Shown piece after piece: positions 6,990 to 7,669 of a stretch of DNA of 16,473 nucleotides. Where the stretch lies: UHGV virus genome UHGV-0341991. One strand, given 5' to 3'. Positions within the stretch are counted from its first letter, which is position 1. The number at the start of each line of letters is the position of its first letter. Source of the stretch: a virus. Both the position numbers and the translations under genes were made by a program. The notes beneath the pieces were generated by a model. The model saw only the letters and a program-made list of their open reading frames with translations, was not told where the DNA came from and made no database searches.

Positions 6990-7003
6990 CATTACTCACG
7001 CTA

Positions 7004-7041
7004 TTGCATATCTCGCAACAAAACACTTGCACATTACGCAA
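7004..7041. promoter_or_regulatory. Two operator-like 15-bp sites (TTGCA-N5-CGCAA at 7004..7018 and 7027..7041), candidate operator of the rightward early operon
   Basis: Same half-site family as the cro/cI intergenic sites; the two sites are centred 23 bp apart, immediately after the cI terminator. Confidence 0.5.
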
Positions 7042-7486
7042 TTTCATTTTATCTTTCTTTCCAGACCAACAAACAAGGTCCTAACAAAATTTGGTTGTAA
7101 CACGGCGTATGGCACATGCGTCGTTAGCGGTCTGGGGACGTTAAAGGGGACAATCCACTCCTTGCTCGAGCAGACAAACCAGGTAGCCGGAATGTGCAAG
7201 TCAATGAGGATGCTGATAAGACGCCTAACCAGCGTGGCGATTCGGTTTGACGCCTGGGAAGAGACCAGGGTGCAACGATGAGGGCATTTATGGAACCGCG
7301 ACAAAGTGTGGTGCCGTAACTGGCTAAGTGCTCTCAGCGTTGTGGTGAATGCGCAGGCTGATGCGCGAAAGACATTGCAGCTATTGCGGAAAAGAGCTGT
7401 TCGGCGGGGCAATTAAACGCCCGTGAGAGTCTGAAATAACCGCAAGCCGGAGATCAGCACCGGTCACCACAACAGCCACTGCTTTG

Positions 7487-7532
7487 GCGGTACCAGTTTG
7501 TACACTTGCTTCCGGCTGGTACCGCTCTTTTT
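7487..7532 (+). terminator. Terminator-like hairpin in the leader of the rightward operon, overlapping a boxA-like CGCTCTTTTTACAA
   Basis: gcggtaccag (7487..7496) pairs with ctggtaccgc (7516..7525), followed by tcttttt. CGCTCTTTTTACAA at 7523..7536 resembles rrn/lambda boxA (GCTCTTTAACAA). Confidence 0.45.
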
Positions 7533-7621
7533 ACAAAACAGAGAAGAGCATCACCGGACGACGGGCTCATAACCCAATCCATCCGGGCGGCAGTCACCGC
7601 AGGTGTTCTTCTCTGTTTTGT
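7533..7621 (+). other. Long perfect 15-bp-stem hairpin in the leader upstream of yfdP
   Basis: acaaaacagagaaga (7533..7547) is the exact reverse complement of tcttctctgttttgt (7607..7621); 59-nt loop. A further small hairpin cgacc/ggtcg lies at 7634..7649, just before the RBS. Confidence 0.5.
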
Positions 7622-7669
7622 GGAGAAACCAACCGACCTTGCAGGGTCGATATGATGAGGAGCAGCAAA

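What the first reader, a model, noticed from the sequence alone, without database searches (positions are those of the whole stretch)
6990..7669. About 680 bp of structured non-coding leader before the rightward early operon, with operator sites, a terminator hairpin and a boxA-like element
Most of the prophage is packed with overlapping genes, yet this stretch has only implausible ORFs. It contains two operator-like sites just after the cI terminator, a hairpin plus U tract at 7487..7532 whose 3' side overlaps CGCTCTTTTTACAA (boxA-like), a perfect 15-bp-stem hairpin at 7533..7621, and a small hairpin before the yfdP RBS. This resembles a pL/nutL-type regulated leader (attenuation or processive antitermination), but no N-like protein is evident, so control may be RNA-based or host-Nus-dependent. 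The CGCTCTT 7-mer is expected about twice by chance in 16 kb, so the boxA call is weak on its own.
Basis: partly seen in the sequence, partly recalled or inferred. Interest (0 to 1): 0.55.

Follow-up and report, generated by a model that had tools for sequence, protein, structure and literature searches.

The report
Portable phage RNA cassettes in leader
The 680 bp between the prophage repressor gene and yfdP is a real non-coding leader, but instead of a lambda-type nut site it is a chain of conserved, unannotated structured-RNA modules that many unrelated phages carry next to their tRNA genes.

Summary
The stretch is non-coding and strongly structured. The hairpin plus U tract, the 15-bp-stem hairpin and the small pre-RBS hairpin are all real. 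The boxA call is not supported, and only one operator arm is convincing.

- A (7090-7270).
- Y1 (7272-7342).
- K (7339-7473): a closing helix plus two near-invariant hairpins whose loops base-pair.
- An intrinsic terminator (7485-7534).
- Y2 (7533-7621).

All recur with compensatory base changes in unrelated phages, including the P1 ban operon, phiV10, N4-like, T1-like and Vi1-like phages and Pseudomonas D3, and in prophages of alpha-, beta- and gamma-proteobacteria. tRNA genes are about 25-fold enriched around K, on the same strand. In relatives the slot that holds K here holds a tRNA or another cargo.

None of the modules matches Rfam 15. None is annotated in 846 E. coli genomes.

My best reading is that these are tRNA-linked stable-RNA genes embedded in the early-left leader, with a leaky terminator separating them from the yfdP mRNA. 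RNA-based antitermination by module A, which sits where put or nut sits in relatives, is the main rival. The function is inferred, not shown.

The parts
6969..6990 (+). Intrinsic terminator of the cI-like repressor gene
   Evidence: 7-bp GC-rich stem followed by TTTTC. The repressor CDS ends at 6947.
7027..7055 (+). Putative early-left promoter (-35 TTGCAC, 17-nt spacer, -10 TATCTT) overlapping one operator arm (7028-7042)
   Evidence: The arm is 87% complementary to oR arm 6171-6185. The hexamers were read by eye and fall below the scan threshold. This part is inferred.
7090..7270 (+). Module A: conserved multi-hairpin RNA. It contains hairpin ACGGCGUAUGGCACAUGCGUCGU (7102-7124), an invariant 22-mer (7179-7200) and hairpin GCCUGGGAAGAGACCAGG (7252-7269).
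   Evidence: Also present in the P1 ban leader just after tRNA-Ile, and in P7, D6, phiV10 and more than 118 IMG/VR loci. The consensus fold has 42 pairs, 8 of them with compensatory changes.
7272..7342 (+). Y1: long stem (GCAACGAUGAGGGCA / UGCUCUCAGCGUUG) capped by a 42-nt variable insert
   Evidence: About 100 distinct Y stems with covarying arms are found across the loci. Their inserts run 15-275 nt and some carry tRNA T-arm-like hairpins.
7339..7473 (+). K motif, made of: P1 7339-7345 with 7467-7473; junction UGAAU 7346-7350; hairpin H1 7351-7366 (loop GGCUGA); variable region 7367-7445; hairpin H2 7446-7464 (loop AGAUCAGCA). The H1 and H2 loops are complementary.
   Evidence: The inner five P1 pairs are 95-99% paired with 4-6 pair types each. 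The covariation score is 0.249 against 0.096 for shuffles (0 of 500 reached it). Compensatory changes are seen in the H1 and H2 stems and in the loop-loop pairing.
7485..7534 (+). Intrinsic terminator-like hairpin plus UCUUUUU; includes the 'boxA-like' string at 7523-7536
   Evidence: -21.2 kcal/mol. Relatives carry a different terminator hairpin at the same position.
7533..7621 (+). Y2: second Y-type stem (15-bp perfect base). It encloses a three-way junction with the conserved core GACGGGCUCAUAACCCAAUCCA (7560-7581) and an arm at 7587-7600.
   Evidence: -49 kcal/mol. The stem sequence is homologous to the Y stems, and the same core occurs inside ordinary Y stems in L104, L120 and L050.
7634..7649 (+). 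Small hairpin CGACCUUGCAGGGUCG, 7 nt before the yfdP Shine-Dalgarno sequence (7657-7661)
   Evidence: Replaced by the unrelated hairpin UGGCGGUGGCAACCGCCA at the same position upstream of yfdP homologues.

Best explanation
Window 6990-7669 is the early-left promoter/operator region followed by a leader of about 610 nt that is never translated.

The leader is a chain of portable structured-RNA cassettes: A, then Y1, then K, then an intrinsic terminator, then Y2, then a small hairpin. It is not a nut site.

I read the cassettes as phage 'stable RNA' genes of the kind that travel with phage tRNA genes. The proposed sequence of events is:
1. Repressor loss switches on transcription starting near 7062.
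2. A, Y1 and K fold as they are made. K forms a closing helix with two hairpins whose loops pair.
3. Most transcripts end at the 7485-7534 terminator, giving an A-Y1-K RNA of about 470 nt. This RNA may be trimmed further at the Y and P1 helices by host RNases.
4. A read-through fraction carries Y2 and the yfdP operon mRNA.
5. The near-invariant loops and junctions of K contact a partner conserved across Proteobacteria. That partner could be a component of the tRNA/translation machinery or other copies of the RNA itself.

Shown here: the non-coding status, the folds, the covariation, the modularity, the tRNA linkage and the distribution.

Inferred: the promoter, terminator efficiency, processing, action in trans and the partner.
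For: - Not coding.
- Each cassette recurs in unrelated phages.
- K: the P1, H1, H2 and loop-loop pairings are all supported by compensatory changes.
- A and Y: covarying helices.
- tRNA density within 450 nt of K is 0.34 per kb against 0.013 elsewhere in the same viral loci, and 0.13 against 0.005 in genome loci. 49 of 51 of these tRNAs lie on the same strand.
- In P1, module A directly follows tRNA-Ile. In RCS47, Y+K directly follow tRNA-Thr.
- In phiV10 the slot after Y1 holds a tRNA-Arg in place of K. In other relatives the same GUUGUGG...CCACAAC bracket holds other cargo.
- Genes downstream of K are unrelated to one another: 60 ORFs fall into 45 clusters. This argues against a gene-specific cis-regulator.
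- The exact 21-mer of K occurs in prophage-bearing genomes of alpha-, beta- and gamma-proteobacteria.
Against: - There is no expression, end-mapping or processing data for any of these RNAs.
- A terminator immediately followed by further structured modules (Y2 here; K or Y directly after terminators in L012, L190, L120 and L028) means read-through must occur. This fits an antitermination design equally well.
- The tRNA association holds for only about 10-16% of K copies.
- K is not detectably tRNA-like to ARAGORN or to the Rfam tRNA model.
- The extreme sequence identity of K could partly reflect recent horizontal spread rather than a sequence-specific partner.
Confidence: 0.45

Rival explanations
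1. RNA-based processive antitermination, working like HK022 put. Module A (or A together with K) folds on the nascent transcript and binds the elongating RNA polymerase. The polymerase then reads through the 7485-7534 terminator and later terminators of the yfdP operon without any N protein.
For: - Three leader types have the same layout. They are nutL (boxA plus a P22-type boxB) - K - N-like gene in L018, L127 and L128; put-like - K in L020 and L185; and A - Y1 - K here. By position, A corresponds to nut or put.
- A's first hairpin shares CGGCG...CAUGCGUCG..AGCG with putL stem I.
- No N-like gene is annotated.
- A terminator lies between the promoter and the first gene.
- 37 of 136 K copies are followed by a predicted terminator within 170 nt.
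Against: - A lacks the stem II core shared by HK022 putL and putR (GGGNGCNCGGCG..GGUCAGGAUGA..CAAUG) and has no G at the position of the essential G35 (PMC9378689).
- A also lies 2.3 kb inside the P1 ban operon, directly before the ban start codon, and in a phiV10 moron next to a tRNA.
- K coexists with real nut/N and put elements, so it would be redundant as an antiterminator.
- K occurs in virulent N4-like, T1-like and Vi1-like phages beside tRNAs.
Confidence: 0.25
2. K is a new self-cleaving or processing-signal RNA. It cuts the polycistronic RNA array into units, in the way HDV-like or hammerhead ribozymes do next to phage tRNAs.
For: - Small core of about 62 nt with a 6-nt linker in L136.
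- The closing helix varies in sequence, while the junctions (UGAAU, CA) are invariant.
- It has a pseudoknot-like loop-loop contact and an optional insertion domain.
- It sits at cassette boundaries and beside tRNAs.
Against: - It matches no ribozyme family in Rfam.
- The stems are also nearly invariant, which is unusual for small ribozymes.
- No biochemical test has been done.
Confidence: 0.1
3. A lambda N-leader-type element. The long helix that closes K is an RNase III site that controls the stability or translation of the downstream message. The conserved interior is incidental.
For: - In N-encoding relatives, K sits exactly where lambda has its RNase III-cut stem, between nutL and the N start.
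- The outer stem sequences resemble lambda's. GCUUUGGGGUGUGG...CCACACCACCAAAG in L033 and L069 compares with lambda's CUUUGGGGUGUGUG...CACACACCAAAG, which I quote from memory.
Against: - In the window, P1 is only 7-9 bp long and a terminator separates K from yfdP.
- The interior hairpins, not the outer stem, are the conserved part.
- K is often not followed by any nearby ORF.
Confidence: 0.1
4. The stretch encodes one or more small proteins. Several phage records annotate hypothetical proteins here.
For: - ORFs of 49-134 codons exist on both strands.
- The mEp460 and PhiR records annotate 'hypothetical proteins' here.
Against: - Substitutions are spread evenly over codon positions in every ORF: 25/34/24, 49/34/37, 22/20/21, 18/19/21 and 13/15/11.
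- 55 alignment columns contain indels.
- PGAP calls nothing here.
- The variation that is present preserves RNA helices instead.
Confidence: 0.02

Closest known systems
GOLLD and ROOL large ornate phage RNAs
   Same: - Carried by phages and prophages.
- Often next to tRNA islands.
- Several hundred nucleotides with many helices.
- Loop-loop (kissing) contacts found by covariation.
- No known function or protein partner (PMC12286853).
- In those RNAs, kissing loops predicted as intramolecular turned out to bridge separate molecules. The same could be true for the H1/H2 loops of K.
   Different: - No Rfam match to either family, in the window or in relatives.
- The hosts are Proteobacteria rather than Firmicutes and similar groups.
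- The RNA here is a mosaic of exchangeable cassettes rather than one fixed architecture.
- Here it lies in an early-operon leader.
HK022 put antiterminator RNAs
   Same: - A structured RNA lies just downstream of the early-left promoter in a lambdoid phage that has no N.
- A terminator lies downstream.
- Module A's first hairpin shares CGGCG...CAUGCGUCG with putL stem I.
   Different: - The put stem II core conserved between putL and putR is absent.
- The HK022 genome has no K motif.
- True put-like elements coexist with K in L020 and L185.
Lambda nutL / N-leader
   Same: - Same genomic position, after the repressor gene and before the first early-left gene.
- Relatives such as L018 carry boxA, boxB, K and an arginine-rich N-like gene in that order.
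   Different: - The window has no conserved boxA, no boxB and no N-like gene.
P1/P7 C4 antisense RNA (Rfam RF01695)
   Same: - Similar outline to K: a closing helix encloses two hairpins, the second starting GCCGG...CCGG.
- Phage-borne, and known to be cut out of an operon leader.
- A true C4 copy lies elsewhere in this window.
   Different: - K does not score against the C4 model.
- K's loops pair with each other rather than with an mRNA target, and it carries a long optional insert.
Stable RNAs co-transcribed with phage tRNAs (T4 species 1 and 2 RNAs). This comparison is from memory and was not tested.
   Same: - Non-coding RNAs embedded in phage tRNA transcription units, with unknown function.
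   Different: - No sequence comparison was made here.

Membership tests
Lambda-type nut site | boxA (CGCUCUUA / GCUCUUUAACAA) conserved among related leaders | tested here: not met
   The string at 7523-7536 is the terminator's 3' arm plus U tract. The homologous terminators in L154, L155, L156 and phiV10 lack GCTCTT.
Lambda-type nut site | boxB hairpin a few nucleotides 3' of boxA | tested here: not met
   The 15-bp Y2 stem starts directly after the string. Genuine boxA plus boxB (GCGCUGACAAAGCGC) is seen in relative L018 but not here.
Lambda-type nut site | An N-like arginine-rich antiterminator gene in the operon | tested here: not met
   The RefSeq annotation of the identical prophage lists none among the 34 features. 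N-like ORFs are seen after K in L018, L127 and L112.
HK022 put RNA | Two-stem RNA with the stem II core shared by putL and putR | tested here: not met
   putL and putR were extracted from HK022. Module A shares only stem I strings. Rfam has no put model, so this was a comparison by eye and by pattern.
GOLLD / ROOL | A match to the Rfam covariance models | tested here: not met
   No hit at E <= 10 in the window (6900-7720) or in L009.
tRNA or tRNA-like element | Cloverleaf detectable by ARAGORN or the Rfam tRNA model | tested here: not met
   ARAGORN finds 0 genes in the window and Rfam finds no tRNA hit. Y inserts of some relatives do carry T-arm-like hairpins and give weak tRNA-Sec hits.
tRNA or tRNA-like element | Recognition by tRNA enzymes (RNase P, CCA-adding enzyme, modification enzymes) | not testable with these tools
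   Requires biochemistry.
C4 antisense RNA clan | A match to the Rfam C4 model | tested here: not met
   C4 is found only at 4808-4895 on the minus strand. K gives no C4 hit, even in its minimal form in L136.
Intrinsic (Rho-independent) terminator | GC-rich stem directly followed by a U tract | tested here: met
   13-bp stem, -21.2 kcal/mol, followed by UCUUUUU. The scan tool missed it because the loop exceeds 8 nt.
Intrinsic (Rho-independent) terminator | Actual transcript 3' ends at the U tract | not testable with these tools
   Requires Term-seq or 3' RACE.
Structured RNA family (K motif) | Helices maintained by compensatory substitutions in independent lineages | tested here: met

The most novel reading that the evidence does not exclude
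The K motif, together with its A and Y companions, is an undescribed and very widespread class of phage-borne structured RNA in Proteobacteria.

It would be a modular counterpart of GOLLD and ROOL that travels with tRNA genes. In some phages it is fused to a tmRNA-like tag template.

Its near-invariant kissing hairpins would either engage a universal host machine (ribosome, tRNA-processing enzymes or RNA polymerase) or join copies into an RNA-only assembly.
Probability: 0.5. Interest if true: 0.85.

Novelty: new variant of a known kind. Interest (0 to 1): 0.72.

Why it matters
If this reading is right, about one in six complete E. coli genomes carries an unannotated structured RNA with strong evolutionary support and no assigned function. 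So do phage P1, Shiga-toxin phages, Pseudomonas D3 and many therapeutic-type Klebsiella and E. coli phages.

Its link to tRNA genes, and in relatives to tmRNA-like tag templates, points to manipulation of the host translation or tRNA machinery. An alternative is a new RNA-only way of controlling transcription.

Either would be directly testable in well-developed genetic systems such as P1, mEp460 and E. coli.

It also shows that 'hypothetical proteins' annotated in these stretches, including P1 plp, may be misannotations.

Tried and rejected
- Rfam at gathering and at permissive thresholds, on the window and on relatives: nothing for the leader. Weak hits to hairpin ribozyme, snoRNA and rydB are chance or partial matches.
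- ARAGORN on the window: no tRNA or tmRNA.
- HK022 put: no K motif in HK022. Module A lacks the put stem II core. The King 2011 put-homologue paper could not be read.
- Mimicry of rRNA or of host tmRNA: no meaningful similarity between the leader, H1 or H2 and the E. coli rrnH operon or ssrA.
- K-12 as a source of expression data: CPS-53 keeps only the last 20 nt or so of the leader.
- Initiator-tRNA anticodon-loop mimicry at the tip of Y2 (GGGCUCAUAACCC): the loop is not conserved. It reads CUCAUUA, CUCAUUC or CCCAUAA in relatives, so I dropped this idea.
- Full-text searches for the conserved strings and for phage tRNA-like, tmRNA-like or kissing-loop RNAs found no description of these modules. 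The Pas sRNA preprint concerns late-region sRNAs, not this locus.
- I did not build a covariance model.
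Full report
SETTING

The window is a lambdoid prophage. It is 100% identical over the query to E. coli SCU-484 and 97.5% identical to phage mEp460. On the plus strand, an XRE/S24 repressor gene (6255-6947) is followed by its terminator (6969-6990). About 720 bp with no annotation come next, followed by yfdP (7670-8032), yfdQ, yfdR and the rest of the early-left genes. 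The cro-like gene and the replication and Q genes run on the minus strand. The finding therefore covers the early-left control region and leader.

CHECK OF THE OBSERVATION

The stretch is non-coding.
- PGAP calls nothing there.
- I aligned 56 distinct homologous leaders of 77-98% identity. Substitutions in each of the five ORFs are spread evenly over codon positions, for example 25/34/24 and 18/19/21. 55 alignment columns carry indels.

The stretch is strongly structured: -242 kcal/mol against -208 +/- 7 for shuffles, z = -4.8.

- The hairpin plus U tract is real. It has a 13-bp stem at -21.2 kcal/mol, followed by UCUUUUU. The scan tool missed it only because its loop is longer than 8 nt.
- Relatives carry a different terminator-like hairpin at the same position: GUCGGCGUC...GACGCCGAC-CUUUUU in two Salmonella phages, GCCCA...UGGGC-ACCUUUUUU in phage Eeyore and GGCGGUGAUGG...CUAUCACCGCC-CUUUUU in phiV10.
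- The 7533-7621 hairpin has a perfect 15-bp base (-49 kcal/mol) and is kept with paired changes.
- The small hairpin at 7634-7649 is replaced by an unrelated hairpin at the same place upstream of yfdP homologues.

Two items are weak.
- Operators. The cro-side operator region holds two perfect TTGCGY-N17-RCGCAA sites. The leader side has a single 15-nt arm (7028-7042), 87% complementary to an oR arm. It overlaps a weak TTGCAC-17-TATCTT promoter that I read by eye.
- boxA. The boxA-like string (7523-7536) is simply the terminator's 3' arm and U tract, and GCTCTT is not kept in the homologous terminators.

WHAT IS REALLY THERE

BLAST against phage records showed that the leader is a mosaic.
- Window 7083-7345 recurs in P1, P7, D6, phiV10, TL-2011b and Tyrion.
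- Window 7326-7474 recurs in the P1-like phage RCS47.
- A 42-nt core (7327-7370) recurs at about 92% identity in Klebsiella, Erwinia, Salmonella, Edwardsiella and Cronobacter phages of unrelated types.

In those records the matches are unannotated and sit next to tRNA genes on the same strand.
- In P1, the match starts one base after tRNA-Ile in the ban operon.
- In RCS47, it starts about 70 nt after tRNA-Thr.
- In Gungnir39, swi2 and KP591P1, it lies 100-270 nt upstream of tRNA genes.

THE K MOTIF (7339-7473)

It hit the same limit in one-genome-per-species GTDB contigs.

The GTDB hits cover:
- Enterobacterales and Pseudomonas.
- Burkholderiales, Xanthomonadales and Halomonas.
- Rhizobium, Pelagibacterium and others.

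The architecture is constant.
- A closing helix P1 of variable sequence.
- The junction UGAAU.
- Hairpin H1, GCGCA-GGCUGA-UGCGC.
- A variable region of 6-178 nt.
- Hairpin H2, GCCGG-AGAUCAGCA-CCGGC.
- CA, then the 3' strand of P1.

I tested the pairings on 96 distinct sequences.
- The five inner P1 pairs are 95-99% paired with four to six pair types each. One pair, for example, reads GC 56, UA 16, CG 11, AU 10, with 2 unpaired.
- The covariation score is 0.249, against 0.096 for shuffles (0 of 500 reached it) and 0.04-0.12 for slid partners.
- H2 shows CG to UA and AU changes.
- H1 stem changes are compensated in the P1-type copy (GCACA/UGUGC) and in L062 (GCGUA/UACGC).

The H1 loop GCUGA and the H2 loop UCAGC are complementary. 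I searched deliberately for H1-loop variants.
- Compensated: five of six distinct U-to-C variants (GGCCGA) have UCGGC or CGGC in H2. One C-to-U variant has UCAAC. One C-to-G variant has UCACC.
- Not compensated: eight single changes (C-to-A, G-to-U, G-to-A).

The loop-loop pairing is therefore supported but not perfect. Whether it forms within one molecule or between molecules cannot be told from sequence.

Other properties of K:
- The smallest member has a 6-nt linker, giving a core of about 62 nt.
- The variable region can hold tRNA-like D- and T-arms (L114) or a 16S-like string (L122).
- One interior type is 88-95% identical between a lambdoid prophage, N4-like phages, 47-kb siphoviruses, Klebsiella phages and Pseudomonas phages.
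- The window's own version is in 846 of 5426 complete E. coli genomes. 237 of the places are on plasmids, and those shown in the table are 93-100 kb, the size of P1-like phage-plasmids. None is annotated.
- At least 166 phage records carry K, including Pseudomonas D3, HK633, phiEt88, Stx2 phages and a Burkholderia phage.

MODULES A, Y1 AND Y2

Module A (7090-7270) is found in more than 118 further IMG/VR loci. Its consensus fold has 42 pairs, eight of them with compensatory changes. Examples are the hairpin CCUGG/CCAGG, GCCGG/CCGGC and CCUCG/CGAGG.

Y1 (7272-7342) is a long stem with a variable cap.
- About 100 distinct Y stems with covarying arms occur across the loci: GGUAAGAGCA/UGCUCUUUCC, GUUGAGAACA/UGUUCUCAAC and GGUAAGGGUA/UACCCUUACC.
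- Inserts run 15-275 nt, and 14 of them contain GUUCRANUC T-loop-like hairpins.
- The basal 4-5 nt of the Y1 3' strand are also the start of K's P1. The two helices compete for them. In the minimum-energy fold of 7262-7485, P1 and the upper Y1 stem form together.

Y2 (7533-7621) is a second Y-type stem. Compare ACAAAACAGAGAAGAGCA with ACAACAGGUAAGAGCA. Its conserved tip occurs inside ordinary Y stems elsewhere.

The slot bracketed by GUUGUGG...CCACAAC after Y1 holds different contents in different phages.
- K in the window.
- A different cargo of about 100 nt starting UAAUCCGCG in L285, L306 and L308.
- A P7-type cargo in L295 and L307.
- In phiV10-type phages, a tRNA-Arg follows the Y1 3' strand directly.

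That tRNA is unannotated in the phiV10 record.

CONTEXT STATISTICS

- tRNA genes are about 25 times denser within 450 nt of K than elsewhere in the same loci. The figures are 0.34 against 0.013 per kb in viral loci and 0.13 against 0.005 in genome loci. 49 of 51 lie on the same strand.
- 37 of 136 K copies are followed by a predicted terminator within 170 nt, and 57 by an ORF within 120 nt.
- Those downstream ORFs are unrelated to each other, falling into 45 clusters from 60 ORFs. The largest cluster is a set of arginine-rich N-like proteins.
- In L018, L127 and L128 the order is early promoter, boxA, P22-type boxB, K, Shine-Dalgarno sequence, N-like gene.
- In L020 and L185, a clear homologue of HK022 putL precedes K.

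K therefore coexists with both known antitermination devices. It occupies the place where lambda has its RNase III-cut N-leader stem; the lambda sequence is quoted from my own memory.

HOW IT MOST LIKELY WORKS

The best-supported reading is that the leader carries phage stable-RNA genes of the kind that travel with tRNA genes.

They would be transcribed from the early-left promoter on induction. The RNAs would fold into A, Y1 and K. Most transcripts would end at the 7485-7534 terminator. A read-through fraction would continue into Y2 and the yfdP operon.

The near-invariance of K's hairpins and junctions across three proteobacterial classes suggests a sequence-specific and conserved partner, or self-assembly as in GOLLD and ROOL (PMC12286853).

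The folds, covariation, modularity, tRNA linkage and distribution are shown here. The promoter, terminator efficiency, processing, action in trans and the partner are inferred.

The main rival is RNA-based processive antitermination by module A.
- For: A sits where put or nut sits in the related leaders. Its first hairpin shares CGGCG...CAUGCGUCG..AGCG with putL stem I. The phage lacks N. A terminator must be passed.
- Against: A lacks the stem II core common to putL and putR and has no equivalent of the essential G35 (PMC9378689). It also occurs deep inside the P1 ban operon and in a phiV10 moron.

The lesser rivals are a new self-cleaving or processing RNA, a lambda-type RNase III leader element, and small proteins. 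Small proteins are effectively excluded.

COMPARISON WITH KNOWN FAMILIES

- No module matches any of the 4227 Rfam 15 families, at gathering or permissive thresholds.
- ARAGORN finds nothing in the window.
- Membership of the nut, put, GOLLD/ROOL, tRNA and C4 families was tested and is not met.
- The closest analogues in lifestyle are GOLLD and ROOL: phage-borne, next to tRNA islands, with kissing loops and unknown function.
- Full-text searches for the conserved strings and for related concepts found no description. The library is incomplete, and one key paper (King 2011) could not be read.

VERDICT

I class it as a new variant of a known kind (phage-borne ornate RNAs linked to tRNA islands). 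I put the chance that it is a genuinely undescribed RNA class at about 0.5. Interest is 0.72.

Noticed in passing
window 4808-4996, minus strand: Rfam finds a C4 antisense RNA (83.6 bits) and an IsrK homologue (62.5 bits) side by side. Both lie inside the 383-codon ORF 4205-5356 that RefSeq annotates as a Rha family regulatory protein. Either the CDS start is over-extended or the two RNAs are embedded in coding sequence.
   Followed up: no
L009 about 1283, L007 about 1304, L008 about 1276, L004 about 1373 (RCS47, a P1-like phage) and about 30 further loci: Upstream of Y and K, many phages carry a tmRNA-like tag template. An A-rich run is followed by GCA AAC GAN..., encoding ANEEMYLAVA, ANDDVVLMAA, ANDEQFLAVA or ANDDLMMVAA. 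Synonymous and compensatory changes are present, and the stop codon sits in the loop of a helix-5-like hairpin. ARAGORN finds no standard tRNA-like domain, and there is only a weak Rfam tmRNA hit. This may be an unreported phage tmRNA mimic in enterobacterial phages, including P1-like ones.
   Followed up: partly
L002 about 1314-1430 (P1 record near 69,824, plus strand): Phage P1 has its own K copy with compensated stems (GCACA/UGUGC and GUCGG/CCGAC). It lies antisense to the annotated putative lipoprotein gene plp, which may therefore be a misannotation.
   Followed up: no
L020 and L185 (Enterobacter sichuanensis): A clear homologue of HK022 putL (GAACGGCGCGACAGUAAACCAUGCGUCGGACGCCCGGCGGGCUCAGGGAGAGCGGCAAUGGUGCG) lies directly upstream of a K motif in the same leader.
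   Followed up: partly
L279 1214-1281 (E. coli K-12 rydB): The small RNA RydB contains GCCGGAGAUAAGCGCCGG followed by UGGGG, which pairs with an upstream CCCCU. This is an H2-plus-P1-like fragment of the K motif without H1, and it explains the recurrent weak rydB hits. It may be a remnant or it may be chance.
   Followed up: partly
L003 2742-2818 (phiV10 record, about 2853-2929): A tRNA-Arg(UCU) that the phiV10 GenBank/RefSeq records do not annotate sits directly after the A-Y module.
   Followed up: yes
window 6172-6200 and 6206-6234: Two perfect 29-bp operators (TTGCGY-N17-RCGCAA), 5 bp apart, lie between the cro-like and repressor genes.
   Followed up: yes
L008 2838-3043 (Klebsiella phage Madison): An STnc100 sRNA homologue (48 bits) lies in the same long unannotated RNA-rich stretch as the tag template, Y and K modules.
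   Followed up: no
L122 and L114, variable region of K: The insert between H1 and H2 contains a 16S rRNA-like string in L122 (AGCUAGAUGGUGAGGUAAUGGCUCACCAUGGCGACGA). In L114 it contains tRNA-like D- and T-arms.
   Followed up: no
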